From a bacterium (GTDB lineage Bacteria; Bacillota_I; Bacilli_A; RFN20; CAG-826), in contig CAVHQU010000004.1 of the NCBI GenBank assembly GCA_963638555.1, positions 65,993 to 129,992 of the forward strand: a DNA stretch of 64,000 nt. Direction: 5' to 3'. Positions 39,755 to 51,698 of this stretch are shown here, one piece after another. A program made the position numbers and the translations under genes. The stretch's first letter is position 1. Every line of letters begins with the position of its first letter. The notes under the pieces were generated by a model. The model did not search any database, was not told the origin of the DNA, and saw only the letters and a list, made by a program, of their open reading frames with translations.

Positions 39755-39769
39755 AGAAGGAGAAGAGGT

Positions 39770-40327
39770 ATGAAAACATATTGCAAAGAATGTTTGAAAA
39801 AGAATAAAAGCTCCACTGGAGTATGTCCTCATTGTGGAAATGAGATGGTAACGACTCTTAATGGTGAAGAAGAAATCAGACCTTTTGTTCAAAAATTGCA
39901 CAAAAGAACAAATGATTTAAGACACTATATTAGTCATTCCTTATCATCTGTTGTCATTGGAGCGATATTATTAGTCATTGCTTTCTTCTTCTATTATCTT
40001 TCCTTCACATCTTCGACTGATCCTGACACATCTGAAAAAATATATGTCGTCAACACTGGATGCTCTGAATTCTGGGTTTCCATGGTTGCTTTAGCGATTG
40101 GCGGAGTCGCCTTCCTTGCTGGTGTCATCATCTCTTTTGTAATTTATCGTCAAAAGAGACAAGTTTTAGCTGATATTGATCATATTCGTGAAACCGGTAA
40201 CTTAGAAACAAAGCCAGTTAAATTGGTTATTGTTGTCTGGTTTGAAAAACTTATCGCATCAATAAAACACCTTATTTGGGTTAGTAAATACAAGAAATCC
40301 CACAAGGCAAAAAAGGAGGACAAATAG
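39770..40327 (+). CDS. Zinc-ribbon membrane protein (CxxC...CxxC N-terminus, 2 TM)
   Basis: CKEC...CPHCG in the first 25 residues, two hydrophobic helices, Lys-rich C-terminus. Confidence 0.55.
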   Translation: MKTYCKECLKKNKSSTGVCPHCGNEMVTTLNGEEEIRPFVQKLHKRTNDLRHYISHSLSSVVIGAILLVIAFFFYYLSFTSSTDPDTSEKIYVVNTGCSEFWVSMVALAIGGVAFLAGVIISFVIYRQKRQVLADIDHIRETGNLETKPVKLVIVVWFEKLIASIKHLIWVSKYKKSHKAKKEDK

Positions 40328-40328
40328 T

Positions 40329-41027
40329 ATGGCAAAGAATTTAGTCTCTACCCTTGAAGAAGACAATTTTCATGAAGAAAACAAAAGATTCTTCTCATTC
40401 GATAAAGAAACATTAAAAAGACCTGGCGTCATTCTCCGTTTATTGGCAATACTCGTCTGTTTGGTTGCCATAATCCTTACGGTTGTCCTTCCTACAGTCA
40501 CGATTGAATATAAGTTCTATTCATCCTCGTCGGAATTTGACAATGCTAGAGCTTTGCTTTTTCCTGCCGAAACAATTTATGGACCTAATGCTTTATTTGG
40601 CGGTGGATATTTCGCGATGTATTTCAAGAGCAACATTATCAAAGGCGTTCACGTCCTTTCTTCCGTTCAAGCTCAATTCAACTGGATTTTATTCATCTTG
40701 TTGATCTTCATGGTTGCATTTATGGTTCTTGGCTTGTTTGTTACATTCACGAAGAAGATGGAAAAATTCTCCAAATTAACAACCTTAGGATTTGCCATTG
40801 GCGCATTTGCTGCTATAGCATCTCCTGTTTGGTTCATGGTCACTAATAATATTGGTAATGATTATGCCGTTTCGACCACGACTTTGACAAGATATTGGAC
40901 TTACGATTCTTTTTATTGTCATTGTTCTTGGGGAGCAATTGTTGCTGCTATTGTCTTTATTATTGCAGCCGTCTTGTTTGGCGTTGGAAGTGGCTTAGAA
41001 AACAAAGGTGGAGAAAGAGGTAGATAA
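40329..41027 (+). CDS. Polytopic membrane protein (about 4 TM), unknown function
   Basis: Four hydrophobic segments. Starts 2 nt after the previous gene. Confidence 0.55.
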   Translation: MAKNLVSTLEEDNFHEENKRFFSFDKETLKRPGVILRLLAILVCLVAIILTVVLPTVTIEYKFYSSSSEFDNARALLFPAETIYGPNALFGGGYFAMYFKSNIIKGVHVLSSVQAQFNWILFILLIFMVAFMVLGLFVTFTKKMEKFSKLTTLGFAIGAFAAIASPVWFMVTNNIGNDYAVSTTTLTRYWTYDSFYCHCSWGAIVAAIVFIIAAVLFGVGSGLENKGGERGR

Positions 41028-41029
41028 TT

Positions 41030-41866
41030 ATGAAAAAGAACTTAATATTAGGCTTAGCATCTTTAATGCTTCTCTCCTCTTGCGGAATTAACTCTTTTGG
41101 CAAGGAAATTACATCGTTAGATGATTTTGTCATGATTTATAAAGATTCTGACGATGATTTCAATGTTGTTAAAGCAAATCGCGTCTTCTCAAGATCAGAT
41201 AAGGCACCAGATGCTGATTTAACGCCAAGCAATCTTCCGAATCATAATGCTGAAATCTATTCAGGAAATGATTTTATCTATGAAGAAACGACTAAATATA
41301 CTGGATTCACTATTCAATATGATGTGGATACGTATTTCCTTGTTGAAGGCGATAAGAATGGTATCGTTTCCACAGATCCTGATGACATCAACGCGTATCG
41401 CTTAGCGGCTCGTTCAATCATTGATACGGATTATCAAACAGTCTTATCCGTATATGATTATATGAAAAAATTCATTGGAAAAACCGGAACTGCAGAAATT
41501 GATAACACTTCCTACACGAACGTTTCTCTAACATTTGCCGATGCAAATACGACTATCGGATACACGCTTAAATATACTTATCAAAATGGTAACGGTTCTC
41601 GCACGGAAGAACGTTACATAACTCTTGATGACGTTGGCAATAAGAAATGGGGAGTCACATTCTATTCCGAACGTATTACAGATACTATTGATGGTGAAGA
41701 GTTCTATTATGTCACGGAATATCAATTCTCTTGTGTAAATGATGAAACGTTGAATAAGAAAACCTTAGCGGCAAAAAACAATCTATCAACATTTACCTTT
41801 ACAGCAAAAGGGCTTACCGATGGCGACGTTTCTCTCGATGGCGATGTTCCATTAACAAAGAAATAA
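41030..41866 (+). CDS. Lipoprotein of unknown function
   Basis: Lipobox LLSSCGIN. 278 aa. Last gene of the tightly packed run that begins at 37713. Confidence 0.6.
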   Translation: MKKNLILGLASLMLLSSCGINSFGKEITSLDDFVMIYKDSDDDFNVVKANRVFSRSDKAPDADLTPSNLPNHNAEIYSGNDFIYEETTKYTGFTIQYDVDTYFLVEGDKNGIVSTDPDDINAYRLAARSIIDTDYQTVLSVYDYMKKFIGKTGTAEIDNTSYTNVSLTFADANTTIGYTLKYTYQNGNGSRTEERYITLDDVGNKKWGVTFYSERITDTIDGEEFYYVTEYQFSCVNDETLNKKTLAAKNNLSTFTFTAKGLTDGDVSLDGDVPLTKK

Positions 41867-41924
41867 CGAATAAATATTATTTCTTGCATGATTTACTTGC
41901 TTGTAGTAAGATACTTCATGCGTT

Positions 41925-42000
<76 letters not shown>

Positions 42001-42002
42001 AA

Positions 42003-42037
42003 ACAAAAAGAAATGCTCCTAATAAGGAGCTTTTTTT
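42003..42037 (+). terminator. Rho-independent terminator after the tRNA-Lys
   Basis: GCTCCT-aata-AGGAGC hairpin followed by TTTTTTT. Confidence 0.55.
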
Positions 42038-42094
42038 GTGTCTTAATGAAACTATTATTGAAAATTAGTCATTTATAGGCATTAATATATATAA

Positions 42095-42541
42095 ATGGAA
42101 AAACAATTATCAATCTCTCGCTTAAGAAGGATTAAAGCGGCTTTGGAGAAAAAGCAAAAGAAATACGTTACATTAGACATGCTATCTAGATGGGTCGCAT
42201 TATATCCTGATGTGGTTTCCGATGAACTGGTTTATTTTGAACCGATGATAAAAATGGACCAATCTTTGAATATGATGGATATTTTGCCAGCAATAAACGA
42301 ATATCTTTCAAAGATTGATGAAAAGAATAAGGAAAATAGAATCAACAAGCCGAGAAGAACTCCAGTAAAAAAGGCTGAAGTTCATGAATATAAATCCGTA
42401 TCTGATTTCGTCTATAGAAAAATGGCTGGCCCAGGCGGACTGATTTCTCCTTCGGAAGAGCTAAATGATCATGATCTCAGAATTTTAGAATTGCTCGTAA
42501 AGGAAGAAATATCTAAGAGAAGAAAGAAAAAGAAAAAATGA
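42095..42541 (+). CDS. Hypothetical basic protein with a poly-Lys tail
   Basis: 148 aa ORF with no recognisable motif. C-terminus is SKRRKKKKK. Lies between the tRNA-Lys and the toxin-antitoxin pair. Confidence 0.45.
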   Translation: MEKQLSISRLRRIKAALEKKQKKYVTLDMLSRWVALYPDVVSDELVYFEPMIKMDQSLNMMDILPAINEYLSKIDEKNKENRINKPRRTPVKKAEVHEYKSVSDFVYRKMAGPGGLISPSEELNDHDLRILELLVKEEISKRRKKKKK

Positions 42542-42788
42542 TTGCTCTTATAAAAACGGTAGCGCAATGTTAGAAAAATATGTTCCTTTATGGGAAATAA
42601 TAAAAACAAGGGCAGAACACTAGCATATTGTCTAATATCGAATGATCATGTTTTTTGGATTTTTAAGATCATTGATTAACGATGAATGGATTAATGGAAA
42701 ACGTTATCATGTCTGTTAACTTTATAAATAGAGTGCAATAAATGCACTTTTTATTTTATTAAAAGGGCAATTATCTTGTAATCTAGTT

Positions 42789-43271
42789 ATGAATCAGATG
42801 TCATCACTTAAAGAATTACGTAAAAATGCAAAAATTACTCAAATAGAGGCAGCAAAAATAGTTGGAATGCCAATAAGAACATATAAGGATTATGAAAATC
42901 TTCCGGAAAGAGAAGGGACATTGAAATATAAGGCTATAATGGCACTTCTTAATGAGTATGTCTTGTTAGATGAAGAACACGGCATATTAGATTTGGAAAC
43001 GATAAGAAAAACTGTATCTGATGTTTTGAAAAATTATCAAGTCAAATCATGTTACCTTTTTGGCTCATATGCAAAAGGAGAGGCAAGAAATAATAGCGAT
43101 GTTGATTTAGTGATAGACATTGAAGTTACTGGACTTTCATTCTTTGGATTGATTGAAGATTTAAGAGAAAATTTGCATAAAAGGGTCGATTTACTTGATT
43201 TAAACCAACTGGTTAATAACAAGGAATTAATTAGTGAGGTTTTGAAAACTGGAATTAAGATTTATGGCTAA
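42789..43271 (+). CDS. XRE-HTH fused to a minimal nucleotidyltransferase (MntA-like antitoxin)
   Basis: N-terminal HTH (LRKNAKITQIEAAKIVGMPIRTYKDYEN) and a pol-beta-type NTase motif GSYAKGEARNNSDVDLVID. Overlaps the HEPN gene by 8 nt. Confidence 0.75.
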   Translation: MNQMSSLKELRKNAKITQIEAAKIVGMPIRTYKDYENLPEREGTLKYKAIMALLNEYVLLDEEHGILDLETIRKTVSDVLKNYQVKSCYLFGSYAKGEARNNSDVDLVIDIEVTGLSFFGLIEDLRENLHKRVDLLDLNQLVNNKELISEVLKTGIKIYG

Positions 43272-43542
43272 AAATTACAACAAATATTATCTAGAAAAAA
43301 TAATTGATGAAATAGATTACATTAGCAAATTGATTCAAAACGTTTCGTTTGAGGAATTTTCGTCTAATATTTTGATAAAAGATTCAATTTGCTTTCGCTT
43401 TATTCAAATCTCGGAGCATGGGAAAATGCTTGAGAAGGAGCTAATTGACAAAAACAAGCAAATACCGTTTAACAAAATTATTGGTTTGAGAAATAGAATA
43501 GTTCATGATTATGGCGGGGTAGATTTGACAGTTGTTTTATAA
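43264..43542 (+). CDS. HEPN-domain protein (HepT-like toxin)
   Basis: 92 aa with an Rx4-6H HEPN motif (RNRIVHDY) near the C-terminus. Translationally coupled to the upstream nucleotidyltransferase. Confidence 0.7.
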   Translation: MAKNYNKYYLEKIIDEIDYISKLIQNVSFEEFSSNILIKDSICFRFIQISEHGKMLEKELIDKNKQIPFNKIIGLRNRIVHDYGGVDLTVVL

Positions 43543-43888
43543 AACAGCAAAGGATGATTTATTACCACTAAAGTCGCAATTGGAGGAATTGTTAACTAAA
43601 CTGAAATAAGCAGCAACATTTTCAAAATATAATTATAATTGCAATAAAAGTCTACATATACTAACTCAAAAGCGAATCCTTGATATACGTTTCAAAATTC
43701 TTTACAACATTCACGATTAAAATGCCCTTACAATCTGAACTTTATTTTAATTAAAAACTGATAAATAAAATATTTCTTTGTTAGTCTAAACTAACGTCGA
43801 TTTTATCTGTATTTTTAATGAAATCTTTGTTTTGTTAAACTACTTTTAAAGTTCTATACTTTAAGTGTTTAAGGAGATATTTATATAA

Positions 43889-46800
43889 ATGTCTGAAATT
43901 AAAAAAACTTTTAAGTCCGTTGATGGCAACACTGCTGCCTCAATAGAAAGCTACTATTTTACAGAAGTAGCAGCCATTTATCCTATCACCCCATCTTCGC
44001 CAATGGCCGAAAACGTTGACGTTATGGCTTCAAAGGGTGAGAAAAACTTCTTTGATCAACCAGTTAAAGTAGTTGAGATGCAATCTGAAGCAGGCGCTTC
44101 TGGCGCAGTTCACGGCGCCTTACAAGGTGGTGCTTTAGCCACGACATACACAGCTTCCCAAGGCTTGTTACTTATGATTCCAAACCTCTACAAATGGTGT
44201 GGTGAACTTTTACCAGCAGTCTTACATGTATCCGCTCGTTCTTTAGCAACTCGCGCCCTTTCCATTTTTGGTGATCAAGCTGATATTTATGCTTGCCGTC
44301 AAACTGGCGTTACGATGATTTGCTCTGGTTCAGTTCAAGAGATCGCTGATTTAGCACCAATTGCTCACTTAACCGCAATTGATGCATCAACTCCAGTCAT
44401 GCATTTCTTTGATGGTTTCCGTACTTCTCACGAAGTTCAAAACGTTGAATTCGTTGATAAAGAAGAATGGAAAAAACTTCTTCCTATGGATAAGGTTGAA
44501 GCATTCCGCGCTCGCGCCCTTAACCCACATACTCATCCGGTAACACGTGGTGGTGCAGAGAATGATGATATTTACTTCCAAGCACGTGAAGCGCAAAACT
44601 CACATTGGAATAACATTCTTCCAATCGCTGAGAAATATTTTGCCGAAGCAACACGCTTAACTGGTCGTGAATACGCTCCATTTGTCTATTATGGTGATCC
44701 AAATGCCGATCGTGTTATCATCGCTATGGGTTCAGTCACTGAGACCGCAAGCGAAGTCGTTGATGCGTTAAACGCAGCCGGAGAACATGTTGGTGTTGTC
44801 AAAGTCCATCTTTATCGTCCATTCTCCGCTGAACATCTTTCTAAAGCAATCCCTGCATCAGTTAAAAAGATTGCTGTTCTCGATAGAACAAAAGAAAATG
44901 GCTCTGAAGGAGAACCTCTCTACCTTGATGTTGTTTCTGCAATGTTCAAACTCAATCGCCATTTTGACACAATCATCGGTGGACGTTATGGCCTTTCTTC
45001 AAAAGATACTCAGCCAAAAGATGTCAAATCAGTCTTTGACTTCTTGAATGCAGAAAAGAATTGGACAGGATTTACAGTTGGTATCACAGATGACGTTACA
45101 CACCTCTCTATCCCAGTTGACAATTCCTTCAAGATTCCTGCCTACTACACATCTTGCTTATTCTATGGCTTAGGAAGTGATGGCACGGTTTCTGCTAACA
45201 AATCTTCTATTAAGATTATTGGTGATGCAACTGGACAATACGCTCAAGCTTATTTCCAATATGACTCCCGCAAATCCGGTGGAACAACTCGTTCACACTT
45301 ACGTTTTGGCAAGAAGCCAATTCGTTCTGAATATTATGTCAAGAATGCAGACTTCATTTCCTGCTCCCTTGATACATATATCTTGAAATACGATATCATT
45401 GCCAACCTCAAAGATGGCGGAACATTCTTACTCAACACAAACATGAGTGATGAAGAACTTGCCTCAGCAATGCCAAATCGTATGAAACATCTCTTAGCTG
45501 AGAAACATGTAAAATTCTACGCTATCGACGCTAACAAACTCGCTGAAGAATGTCATATGGGTCGCCACACAAATACAACTCTTCAAGCCGCTTTCTTCAA
45601 ATTAAATCCGCAAATTATGCCTTATGAACAAGCTGAAGAATGGATGAAGAAGTTTGTTAAGAAAACATACGAAAGAAAAGGAATGGACATCGTTCAAAAC
45701 AACTACGATGCTATTGATGCTGGCCCGGCAGGTCTTCGTGAAGTCGCTATCGATCCAAAATGGATTGAACTCCCAACAACCAAGGTCTTAGAAGATACTG
45801 GTGATACATATTATGATGAATATGTTGGCACAATTGATCGTCTTGATGGTGATGAACTCCCAACATCCGAATTCCTTAAGTACGAATTGGCCGATGGCAC
45901 GATGGAAGAAAATATTGTTTTCCGTCAAAAGAGAGCTATTGCAGACCGTGTTCCAGTTTGGAATCCAGCATACTGTATTGAATGTAACCAATGTGCATTC
46001 GTTTGCCCTCACGCAACAATTCGTCCATATCTCTTAGACGAAGAAGAACTTGCAAAGGCTCCTTCCATCATCAAAGATTCAGTCAAACCAGTCACCGGTT
46101 CACCAAAAGCCGCTAACCTTAAATATCGTATTAGCGTTGCAACAGAAAACTGCGTTGGCTGCGGACTTTGTGTCTCTGAATGTATGGCCAACCAAACAGC
46201 CAAGAAGATGGGCAATGATCACTTTGCGCTTGTCATGAAAGATGCTAAAGCAGAATTCGGTGAGCAAGTTGCGGCTGACTATTGCTACTACAATGTTTCG
46301 AATAAGACCGATATCTTCCCACTCACAACAGTTAAAGGTGTTGGATTCTTACGCCCATACATGGAAGTTTCAGGTGCTTGCGCAGGATGTGGTGAAGCTC
46401 CTTATTATCGCTTACTCTCACAATTATTCGGACACGACTTATTGATTGCAAACGCAACAGGATGCTCTTCAATTTATTGTGGTTCTACCCCATTAACTCC
46501 TTTTGTCAAAGATAAGAATGGCGAAGGTGTTGCTTGGGCCAACTCCTTATTCGAAGATAATGCTGAATATGGCTTTGGCATGAGAATTGCCAATGACTAT
46601 AAGATGTCTGTTATCAATCGTATTGTTTCTGCCGCTATCGCCGATGAAACAGTTGAAGAAAGTTTAAAGGATGCTGCAACAAAATACCTTGAAGCACTCT
46701 CTAAGAAAGATAGAGACGCAGAACGAGCAATCGTTCCAACTCTTATCAAAGAAGTCGATGCTTCTAAGAACGAAGCTGTCAAAGAACTTAAGAATTACTA

Positions 46801-51621: not shown

Positions 51622-51698
51622 CGGGACATAGCACAGCTTGGTAGTGCACTTGGTTAGGGACCAAGGGGTCGAGGGTTCAAATCCCTCTGTTCCGACCA
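51622..51698 (+). tRNA. tRNA-Pro-like gene whose anticodon reads AGG
   Basis: C1-G72 acceptor pair with A73. Anticodon stem CTTGG/CCAAG with a 7-nt loop TTAGGGA (U33, A34-G35-G36, G37). T-arm GAGGG-TTCAAAT-CCCTC. Encoded CCA. Body matches Firmicute tRNA-Pro(UGG) except at position 34. Confidence 0.75.

What the first reader, a model, noticed from the sequence alone, without database searches (positions are those of the whole stretch)
42789..43542. HEPN/nucleotidyltransferase toxin-antitoxin pair in which the nucleotidyltransferase carries an N-terminal XRE helix-turn-helix
A 160-aa protein joins an XRE-type HTH to a pol-beta minimal nucleotidyltransferase (GS...DVD). It overlaps a 92-aa HEPN protein with an Rx4-6H motif by 8 nt. 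This is the HepT/MntA (type VII, AMPylation-based) arrangement. The HTH fusion would give the antitoxin its own DNA-binding domain for autoregulation. Such pairs also function in abortive infection. The pair sits about 800 nt downstream of a tRNA-Lys gene, a classic integration point. A palindrome AGTGCA-ataaa-TGCACT lies about 45 nt upstream of the start codon and is a candidate operator.
Basis: partly seen in the sequence, partly recalled or inferred. Interest (0 to 1): 0.55.

Follow-up and report, generated by a model that had tools for sequence, protein, structure and literature searches.

The report
HTH-fused MntA antitoxin, broken HepT toxin
This is a toxin-antitoxin gene pair of the known HepT/MntA kind whose antitoxin carries its own DNA-binding domain and a matching operator, but in this strain the toxin gene has been cut short by a one-base insertion, so it is an ordinary, decaying copy of a common but unstudied subfamily.

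Summary
The described ORFs, motifs, 8-nt overlap, palindrome and tRNA-Lys are all present. The 160-aa protein is an XRE-type HTH fused to a MntA-like minimal nucleotidyltransferase (GSX10DXD; fold matches solved MntA structures). An extra T at 43535-43538 shifts the frame, and the ancestral C-terminus survives out of frame to 43609. Six close-strain contigs encode an intact 114-aa HepT; another strain shares the insertion and adds a second frameshift. The truncation removes nearly all of the last core helix, so the toxin is probably dead. The fusion is not rare: 2040 database relatives and at least 483 species genomes, mostly gut Bacillota. I found no paper describing it. The operator guess is well supported. 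GTGCA-N4-6-TGCAC occurs 51 times upstream of 37 of 80 family genes and never elsewhere in those loci, and half-site variants covary with HTH residue 33. The tRNA-island idea is not supported: a sister lineage lacks the pair but keeps the tRNA and the intervening ORF, and there is no integrase or att repeat. About 23% of sampled family loci have an intact antitoxin beside a degraded or missing toxin. Modest interest.

The parts
42732..42748 (.). Predicted operator: palindrome AGTGCA-ATAAA-TGCACT (core GTGCA-N5-TGCAC at 42733-42747)
   Evidence: It is the only exact match in the window. The half-sites are invariant while the spacer varies (ATAAA, AGACC, ACAAT, GAAAC) across relatives. The same palindrome lies upstream of 37 of 80 family genes, with 51 occurrences there and 0 elsewhere in those loci. 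Half-site variants covary with HTH residue 33. It also scores as a weak terminator-like hairpin.
42765..42770 (+). Half-site-like GGGCAA between the putative -35 and -10 (GTGCAA at the same place in L002/L008 and L022)
   Evidence: Alignments A2 and A5. In many family loci a second full palindrome occupies this -35/-10 spacer. This is a weak call.
42777..42782 (+). Putative -10 hexamer TGTAAT; its last base lies 6 nt before the ATG and there is no Shine-Dalgarno sequence, which predicts a leaderless mRNA
   Evidence: Eight other strains of the lineage have TATAAT at this position. The window alone has G at 42778. This is inferred from sequence only; the consensus scan did not list it.
42789..43271 (+). 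HTH-MntA antitoxin gene, 160 aa: XRE-type HTH (residues ~7-60) + conserved linker DEEHGIL (60-66) + minimal nucleotidyltransferase (residues ~69-160) with G92-S93-X10-D104-x-D106
   Evidence: Pfam HTH_3, Polbeta and NTP_transf_2 all above their cut-offs. phmmer matches MntA chains 8xeh_E and 5yep_A. The AlphaFold model has pLDDT 84.7 with four N-terminal helices plus an alpha/beta domain. The top Foldseek PDB hits are all MntA antitoxins, target TM-score up to 0.74. dN/dS is 0.04-0.05 against L089/L092.
43264..43542 (+). hepT, frameshift-truncated ORF (92 aa) that keeps R76-X4-H81-x-Y83 but lacks the C-terminal helix
   Evidence: Pfam HepT-like 55 bits, covering profile positions 1-102 of 120. 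Alignment to intact orthologs. In the ortholog model the last helix spans residues 88-113.
43535..43538 (+). T-run carrying the 1-nt insertion (TTTT here, TTT in relatives with the ancestral frame)
   Evidence: Alignment A1, column 272. The insertion is shared with strain L001, which differs at 48 substitutions over 3.3 kb, and it is reproduced in an independent Logan assembly, L103.
43538..43609 (+). Out-of-frame remnant of the hepT 3' end, encoding YKTAKDDLLPLKSQLEELLTKLK*
   Evidence: Frame translations. It is nearly identical to the C-terminus of the intact 114-aa ortholog P0159. The repaired gene scores 70 bits and covers profile positions 1-119 of 120.

Best explanation
This is a chromosomal two-gene module of the HepT/MntA (type VII) toxin-antitoxin kind. 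It belongs to a large subfamily in which the MntA adenylyltransferase antitoxin carries an N-terminal XRE-type helix-turn-helix. Inferred mechanism: a dimer of the HTH binds the GTGCA-N5-TGCAC operator at the promoter and represses the bicistronic, probably leaderless, operon. The nucleotidyltransferase domain (GSX10DXD) neutralises the HepT RNase by AMPylating the tyrosine of its RX4HXY motif (Y83 here), as shown experimentally for Shewanella MntA/HepT. In this particular strain a recent 1-nt insertion has cut hepT from 114 to 92 codons and removed almost all of the last core helix. The toxin is therefore most probably inactive, and the locus is now an orphan, self-regulated antitoxin at an early stage of decay. 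Shown here: the domain identities, motifs and fold, the frameshift and its inheritance, operator enrichment and covariation, and variable presence of the pair among relatives. Inferred: DNA binding, AMPylation, loss of toxicity and leaderless transcription.
For: GSX10DXD and RX4HXY are the defining motifs according to PMC7641770.

Frameshift. The repaired gene covers HepT profile positions 1-119 of 120 at 70 bits, against 1-102 at 55 bits as called. The lesion is a 1-nt T insertion. An intact 114-aa ortholog, P0159, is 84% identical and has the same C-terminus. Six close-strain contigs, L088-L093, carry the intact gene. L001 shares the insertion and has a further G deletion. An independent assembly, L103, is identical to the window. 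The repaired gene has dN/dS 0.03-0.04 against intact orthologs, so the lesion is recent.

Structure. The ortholog model (pLDDT 89.7) places the last long helix at residues 88-113.

Operator. There are 51 exact palindromes within 150 nt upstream in 37 of 80 loci and none elsewhere in those loci. Half-sites occur at 18.1 per kb upstream against 1.4 per kb elsewhere. The palindrome often lies between TTGACA and TATAAT. Residue 33 is K in 32 of 34 GTGCA loci, S in 9 of 12 ATGCA loci and Q in 7 of 8 ACGCA loci. Half-sites are invariant while the spacer changes at 4 of 5 positions between the window and L089.

Recurrent toxin decay elsewhere. L002 has two frameshifts and L006 a nonsense codon. Among the 80 species loci, 12 have a degraded HepT and 6 have none, in each case beside an intact antitoxin.
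Against: There is no experiment. DNA binding, AMPylation and toxicity are inferred by homology.

Both proteins fall below NCBIfam's equivalog cut-offs (55.9 and 40.6 bits against 60), so they are divergent from the characterised systems.

The 92-aa product keeps the catalytic RX4HXY motif, so residual or altered activity cannot be excluded.

The palindrome followed by a T-run also fits a weak intrinsic-terminator pattern.

The covariation classes coincide with clades, so the counts are not independent events.

The predicted -35 (TTTTAT) is poor, and the consensus scan did not call this promoter.
Confidence: 0.8

Rival explanations
1. The pair is a fully functional TA or abortive-infection module as first read. 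On this view the 92-aa HepT is a natural short but active toxin that the antitoxin keeps in check.
For: The ORF keeps R76-X4-H81-x-Y83 and passes the Pfam HepT-like threshold. The antitoxin is intact and was under strong purifying selection.
Against: All 59 intact family HepT proteins sampled are 107-126 aa (one read-through ORF of 160 aa) and extend about 22-25 residues past VDLxxV. The missing tail is still readable out of frame. Intact 114-aa orthologs exist in close strains. The sister strain L001 has gone on to acquire a second frameshift that removes the motif. The model shows that 22 of the 26 residues of a core helix are lost.
Confidence: 0.1
2. The HTH-MntA has a function that does not depend on its neighbouring toxin. 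It could be a transcription regulator, or an immunity (anti-addiction) enzyme that neutralises HepT toxins arriving on other elements. That would explain why it is kept after the toxin dies.
For: Of 77 informative species-level loci, 18 have an intact antitoxin beside a degraded or absent HepT. All 18 keep GSX10DXD and 31-32 of 32 invariant residues. Four independent toxin lesions occur in the window's own genus-level clade, while the antitoxin stays at 160 aa.
Against: The loci were chosen by antitoxin similarity, so decayed antitoxins were not sampled. Toxin-first decay is what any TA pair is expected to show, because losing the antitoxin first is lethal. The window differs from L001 by 3 nonsynonymous and 0 synonymous changes in the antitoxin and has a -10 A-to-G change, which hints at relaxed rather than maintained constraint. 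No second HepT or MNT gene lies in the window.
Confidence: 0.2
3. The palindrome is the intrinsic terminator of the upstream 148-aa gene and not an operator.
For: The terminator scan reports an 8-bp stem (3 GC pairs), a 5-nt loop and a T-rich tail at 42730-42750.
Against: The same half-sites accompany the antitoxin gene in unrelated genomic contexts. They often occur in two or three copies, including inside the -35/-10 spacer. The stem sequence is invariant rather than changing by compensatory substitutions, and half-site variants track an HTH residue. The hairpin lies 190 nt after the upstream stop codon. The two roles are not mutually exclusive.
Confidence: 0.07
4. The segment from 42.0 to 43.6 kb is a mobile island that integrated at tRNA-Lys.
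For: The pair is about 790 nt downstream of tRNA-Lys. It is absent from a sister lineage. It has a lower GC content than the window, 29.6% against 38.6%.
Against: Relatives without the pair keep both the tRNA and the 147/148-aa ORF. The indel spans only 42540-43847. There is no integrase ORF and no repeat of the tRNA 3' end. The pair sits at this same site in lineages whose antitoxins are only 58% identical, which argues for long residence and later loss. The family is rare on phage, plasmid and viral contigs.
Confidence: 0.04
5. The frameshift is a sequencing or assembly error and the gene is intact in the organism.
For: The lesion lies in a homopolymer (T3 to T4), and the source is a metagenome-assembled genome.
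Against: An independent Logan assembly gives the identical sequence. A different strain from another assembly shares the insertion. That strain carries an additional lesion, and a relative has a nonsense substitution that no homopolymer error could produce.
Confidence: 0.04

Closest known systems
HepT/MntA (HEPN/MNT) type VII toxin-antitoxin system: Shewanella oneidensis SO_3166/SO_3165, Aphanizomenon flos-aquae and Legionella pneumophila HEPN-MNT
   Same: The gene order is the same, with MNT first and overlapping HepT. The antitoxin has GSX10DXD and the toxin has RX4HXY. The minimal nucleotidyltransferase fold superposes on 8xeh, 7bxo, 6m6u and 5yep. In Shewanella the antitoxin represses its own promoter, which has palindromes near -10 and -35 (PMC4621449).
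   Different: The characterised MntA proteins are described as having no recognisable DNA-binding domain (PMC4621449, PMC7641770). This one has an N-terminal XRE-type HTH of about 60 residues and a conserved DEEHGIL linker. The scores fall below the NCBIfam equivalog cut-offs. The toxin here is frameshifted.
Classical type II antitoxins with an XRE/HTH DNA-binding domain (for example HipB, MqsA, HigA, PezA)
   Same: There is an N-terminal HTH, a palindromic operator overlapping the promoter, and modular fusion of a DNA-binding domain to a toxin-neutralising domain. Weak profile matches to HipB, MqsA and PezA were found.
   Different: The neutralising module here is an enzyme (a nucleotidyltransferase), not a toxin-sequestering peptide.
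Fused MNT-HEPN single-chain TA modules (PMC13000451, 2026)
   Same: This is another domain-architecture variant of the HepT/MntA theme.
   Different: In that family MNT is fused to HEPN. Here MNT is fused to an HTH and HEPN is a separate gene.
Xre-MNT pair of Streptococcus suis (PMC8406773)
   Same: It combines an Xre-type HTH with an MNT-type nucleotidyltransferase in a TA context.
   Different: In that system Xre and MNT are separate proteins, MNT is described as the toxin, and no HepT is involved.

Membership tests
HepT/MntA type VII toxin-antitoxin | Antitoxin with the GSX10DXD nucleotidyltransferase motif | tested here: met
   G92-S93-YAKGEARNNS-D104-V-D106. It aligns to the GS and DxD residues of 5yep_A and 8xeh_E.
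HepT/MntA type VII toxin-antitoxin | Antitoxin has the minimal pol-beta nucleotidyltransferase fold | tested here: met
   Pfam Polbeta 58.6 bits and NTP_transf_2 41.8 bits. The top 17 Foldseek hits are MntA/MNT structures, probability 1.00, target TM-score 0.45-0.77.
HepT/MntA type VII toxin-antitoxin | Toxin with the RX4HXY motif (catalytic R and H plus the acceptor tyrosine) | tested here: met
   R76-NRIV-H81-D-Y83.
HepT/MntA type VII toxin-antitoxin | Complete HepT (DUF86) domain, including the C-terminal helix | tested here: not met
   Only profile positions 1-102 of 120 are covered. The ORF ends at residue 92, while orthologs have 114 residues and the model's last helix spans 88-113.
HepT/MntA type VII toxin-antitoxin | Antitoxin gene upstream of, and translationally coupled to, the toxin gene | tested here: met
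   There is an 8-nt overlap, ATGGCTAA. The same -8 overlap is seen in most family loci.
HepT/MntA type VII toxin-antitoxin | NCBIfam equivalog scores (MntA_antitoxin NF047752, HepT_toxin NF047751) | tested here: not met
   55.9 and 40.6 bits against cut-offs of 60. The proteins are related but divergent.
HepT/MntA type VII toxin-antitoxin | HepT is a toxic RNase, and MntA neutralises it by oligo-AMPylating the tyrosine | not testable with these tools
   This needs toxicity and rescue assays plus mass spectrometry.
XRE-family helix-turn-helix DNA-binding domain | Profile match above the curated threshold, and a helical bundle with helix-turn-helix | tested here: met
   Pfam HTH_3 scores 26.3 bits against 23, but covers only profile positions 1-31 of 55. 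The model has helices at 7-13, 18-25, 29-37 and 45-60, with pLDDT 84-92.
XRE-family helix-turn-helix DNA-binding domain | A cognate palindromic operator at the regulated promoter | tested here: met
   The support is comparative only: enrichment, conservation and covariation with residue 33. Binding itself was not tested.
tRNA-anchored genomic island | An integrase, plus a direct repeat of the tRNA 3' end at the far border | tested here: not met
   No such ORF or repeat lies between 41900 and 44000.
tRNA-anchored genomic island | The presence/absence boundary coincides with the tRNA | tested here: not met
   The empty site in L094-L102 keeps the tRNA-Lys and the 147-aa ORF. Only 42540-43847 is missing.

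The most novel reading that the evidence does not exclude
The HTH-MntA fusion is kept for a job of its own. It may act as a self-regulated adenylyltransferase that gives immunity against HepT toxins arriving from other elements, or it may modify or regulate other targets. This would explain why about a quarter of sampled species-level loci carry a fully conserved antitoxin beside a dead or deleted toxin.
Probability: 0.2. Interest if true: 0.6.

Novelty: new variant of a known kind. Interest (0 to 1): 0.36.

Why it matters
Published work on HepT/MntA describes the antitoxin as lacking a DNA-binding domain, which leaves open how these operons are regulated. This subfamily, abundant in gut and rumen Bacillota, answers that in the classical modular way: an XRE-type HTH is fused to the enzyme.

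The comparative data yield a ready-made, testable recognition code. Operator GTGCA, ATGCA and ACGCA pair with residue 33 as K, S and Q respectively.

The set of related strains also captures a toxin gene in several independent stages of decay beside a preserved antitoxin. That makes it a convenient natural series for asking what happens to an enzymatic antitoxin after its toxin is lost.

For this window, the practical point is one of annotation. The hepT gene is a pseudogene-like allele, not an active toxin.

Tried and rejected
- **Programmed frameshift.** Considered as a way to restore hepT and rejected. The site (GUU GUU UUA UAA) has no known +1 slippery context. Intact strains simply have one T fewer, and L001 adds a second lesion.
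- **Assembly error.** Rejected.
- **tRNA-Lys island.** Rejected.
- **Terminator-only reading of the palindrome.** Disfavoured.
- **148-aa ORF (42095..42541) as a third component.** It has no Pfam, NCBIfam or PADLOC hit, and it is conserved in relatives that lack the pair. It is therefore not part of the module.
- **Rfam.** Only the tRNA was found in 41800-44000.
- **PADLOC.** The nucleotidyltransferase domain hits the candidate-system models PDC-S09. HepT hits nothing, so there is no support for a named defence system.
- **Literature.** Four searches and targeted reading of six papers found no description of an HTH-MntA fusion. The library is incomplete, so this is absence of evidence only.
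- **Phage and plasmid searches.** These were nearly empty. IMG/VR held nine full-length copies.
- **Not done.** I did not use the 1.84-billion-protein profile search, because family size was already clear.

Full report
**1. What is in the sequence**

The two ORFs exist as described: 42789..43271 (+, 160 aa) and 43264..43542 (+, 92 aa). They overlap by 8 nt, ATGGCTAA.

tRNA-Lys(ctt) lies at 41925..42000. A 148-aa ORF with no family match sits between it and the pair, at 42095..42541.

The palindrome AGTGCA-ATAAA-TGCACT is at 42732-42748. It is the only exact GTGCA-N5-TGCAC in the 64-kb window. Taken alone this is not statistically remarkable: allowing one mismatch there are 3 matches against 1.4 expected.

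**2. The antitoxin**

The 160-aa protein passes the Pfam thresholds for HTH_3 (residues 7-37), Polbeta and NTP_transf_2.

By sequence it matches the solved MNT/MntA antitoxins of Legionella (8xeh_E) and Shewanella (5yep_A), with the GS and DxD residues aligned. Its motif is G92-S93-X10-D104-V-D106. This is the GSX10DXD signature that Yao et al. showed to be required for AMPylation (PMC7641770).

An AlphaFold model built on 27 family sequences has mean pLDDT 84.7. It shows four N-terminal helices (7-13, 18-25, 29-37, 45-60), a poorly ordered linker, and then an alpha/beta domain. The top 17 Foldseek hits against the PDB are MntA/MNT structures, with target TM-scores up to 0.77.

NCBIfam's strict equivalog model scores 55.9 bits against a cut-off of 60. 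The protein is therefore a divergent relative and not an equivalog.

**3. The toxin gene is frameshifted**

The 92-aa ORF passes Pfam HepT-like and carries R76-X4-H81-x-Y83, but it matches only positions 1-102 of the 120-position profile.

Directly after its stop codon, another frame reads YKTAKDDLLPLKSQLEELLTKLK* (43538-43609). Removing one T from the run at 43535-43538 gives a 114-aa protein. That protein covers profile positions 1-119 and scores 70 bits instead of 55.

A database search found an 84%-identical ortholog of exactly 114 aa with the same C-terminus (P0159). Six contigs from close strains (L088-L093, antitoxin about 93% identical) all encode the intact 114-aa gene.

The DNA alignment pinpoints the lesion as a single T insertion. 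It is not an artefact, for two reasons:
- An independent Logan assembly of run SRR13434627 is 100% identical to the window.
- Strain L001 differs from the window by 48 substitutions over 3.3 kb, shares the insertion, and has a further 1-nt deletion that removes the catalytic motif.

The repaired gene shows dN/dS of 0.03-0.04 against intact orthologs, so the lesion is recent.

A confident model of the intact ortholog (pLDDT 89.7, pTM 0.84) has three long helices at 2-24, 36-55 and 88-113. The truncation removes 22 of the 26 residues of the last one. I infer that the product is misfolded or inactive. This is inference and was not tested.

**4. The family**

The fusion is common. There are 2040 relatives at E <= 0.001, and the best 120 are nearly all 156-187 aa with the same architecture.

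They are mostly gut and rumen Lachnospiraceae, Oscillospiraceae, Acutalibacteraceae, Erysipelotrichaceae and Mollicutes-like Bacilli. The cultured [Ruminococcus] torques ATCC 27756 is among them.

Source annotations are generic ("helix-turn-helix domain-containing protein", "nucleotidyltransferase domain-containing protein").

The family is rare on mobile elements:

| Collection | Full-length hits |
|---|---|
| Phage records | 1 |
| Plasmid records | 0 |
| IMG/VR, 2.9 million contigs | 9 |

I found no paper describing the fusion. The characterised MntA proteins are explicitly said to lack a recognisable DNA-binding domain.

**5. The operator**

Across the 80 fetched loci:
- The exact palindrome GTGCA-N4-6-TGCAC occurs 51 times within 150 nt upstream of 37 genes, and not once in the rest of the fetched sequence.
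- Half-sites occur at 18.1 per kb upstream against 1.4 per kb elsewhere.

The typical layout has one copy just upstream of a TTGACA -35 and one in the spacer between -35 and TATAAT.

Other subclades carry variants: ATGCA...TGCAT, ACGCA...TGCGT and TGCCA...TGGCA. The variant tracks the residue at window position 33, in the predicted recognition helix (IRTY-K-DYEN):

| Operator half-site | Residue 33 |
|---|---|
| GTGCA | K in 32 of 34 |
| ATGCA | S in 9 of 12 (never K) |
| ACGCA | Q in 7 of 8 |

These classes coincide with clades, so the counts are not independent events. The pattern is still what direct read-out by the HTH predicts.

Within the window's own lineage the half-sites are invariant, while the 5-nt spacer differs at four positions (ATAAA against AGACC).

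The palindrome plus its T-run also meets a loose terminator pattern. That reading does not explain the copy number, the position inside promoters or the covariation.

**6. Promoter**

In eight other strains a perfect TATAAT ends 6 nt before the ATG, and there is no Shine-Dalgarno sequence. This geometry predicts a leaderless transcript.

The window alone has TGTAAT, an A-to-G change at the second base of the hexamer (42778). From general knowledge this is the most conserved -10 position, so the change should weaken the promoter.

The window and L001 antitoxins also differ by 3 nonsynonymous and 0 synonymous changes, against a long-term dN/dS of 0.04-0.05. Together these hint that constraint on the whole module has begun to relax. 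The numbers are small.

**7. Genomic context**

The order 148-aa ORF, HTH-MntA, HepT, PFOR is conserved in relatives whose antitoxins are 98%, about 93%, 79% and 58% identical. The pair has therefore been resident at this site for a long time.

A sister lineage (L094-L102; PFOR DNA 84% identical) keeps tRNA-Lys and the 147-aa ORF but has no TA pair. About 230 nt of unrelated sequence replace window 42540-43847.

There is no integrase and no tRNA-derived repeat. The pair is accessory, but it is not a tRNA-anchored island.

The segment is AT-richer than the window, 29.6% against 38.6% GC.

**8. Recurrent toxin loss**

In the window's genus-level clade hepT has been hit at least four separate times:
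- the shared T insertion (window and L001);
- L001's additional G deletion;
- two 1-nt deletions in L002/L003;
- a CAA-to-TAA nonsense change in L006, whose antitoxin is identical in protein to that of strains with an intact toxin.

The antitoxin is 160 aa in every case.

HepT state in the 80 species-level loci:

| HepT state | Loci |
|---|---|
| Intact | 59 |
| Remnant or pseudogene | 12 |
| No trace | 6 |
| Uninformative (contig end) | 3 |

All 18 orphan antitoxins keep GSX10DXD and 31-32 of 32 family-invariant residues.

Because the loci were selected by antitoxin similarity, this cannot prove continued selection on orphans. Toxin-first decay is also the expected order for any TA pair. A toxin-independent role for the antitoxin remains the most novel reading that the evidence does not exclude.

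**9. Verdict**

It is wrong about the toxin being complete and about tRNA-targeted integration, and it overestimates the rarity of the fusion.

The locus is a decaying member of a large subfamily that, as far as I could find, has not been described in the literature. That subfamily is an architectural variant of the known type VII HepT/MntA system. Interest is modest.

Noticed in passing
window 42095-42541: A 148-aa ORF with no Pfam, NCBIfam or PADLOC match and a poly-lysine C-terminus (KRRKKKKK). It is conserved next to PFOR in every relative examined, including those without the TA pair (about 70% DNA identity to L094). Its function is unknown.
   Followed up: partly
window 42000-42095, compared with L094 1565-3282: The sister lineage has a 478-aa Big_2-domain gene between tRNA-Lys and the 147-aa ORF, which the window lacks. 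So the region just downstream of the tRNA is variable, independently of the TA pair.
   Followed up: no
window 42545-42728: About 185 nt of intergenic sequence between the 148-aa ORF and the TA promoter is present in the window and L001, shortened to about 104 nt in L089, and almost absent (about 15 nt) in L002. It contains a partial direct repeat of the end of the upstream gene (42464-42486 and 42641-42663).
   Followed up: no
window 42966-42986 (antitoxin residues 60-66, DEEHGIL): The linker between the HTH and the nucleotidyltransferase holds family-invariant D61, E62 and G65 and near-invariant H64. The model is nevertheless least confident there (pLDDT below 50 at residues 60-62). It could be a functional motif, for example a hinge, a metal site or a HepT contact.
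   Followed up: no
window 42777-42789 and loci L008, L009, L012, L022, L070: In the Erysipelotrichaceae/Mollicutes-like clade the antitoxin gene has no Shine-Dalgarno sequence and the -10 sits 6-9 nt from the ATG, which predicts a leaderless mRNA. Lachnospiraceae and Oscillospiraceae members instead have a strong GGAGGTG site, often followed by CAA so that a GTGCAA half-site overlaps the ribosome-binding site.
   Followed up: partly
L013 and L015 (contig JAFUKG010000032.1, positions 39759-46232 and 209995-216468): One Clostridia genome carries two copies of the module with identical upstream regions and identical HepT C-termini, about 170 kb apart on one contig and in opposite orientation.
   Followed up: no
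window 51622-51698, compared with L094 10285-10361: tRNA-Pro(agg) lies on the same strand as PFOR in the window but on the opposite strand in L094 and L095. This suggests a local inversion or rearrangement downstream of PFOR between the lineages.
   Followed up: no
window 43832-43860: The right-hand boundary of the TA indel (about 43848) falls inside the predicted PFOR promoter (TTGTTA-17-TATACT). Only the -10 and the sequence downstream of it are shared with relatives lacking the pair, so the pair supplies or replaces the upstream part of that promoter. No terminator-like site was found between hepT and PFOR.
   Followed up: no
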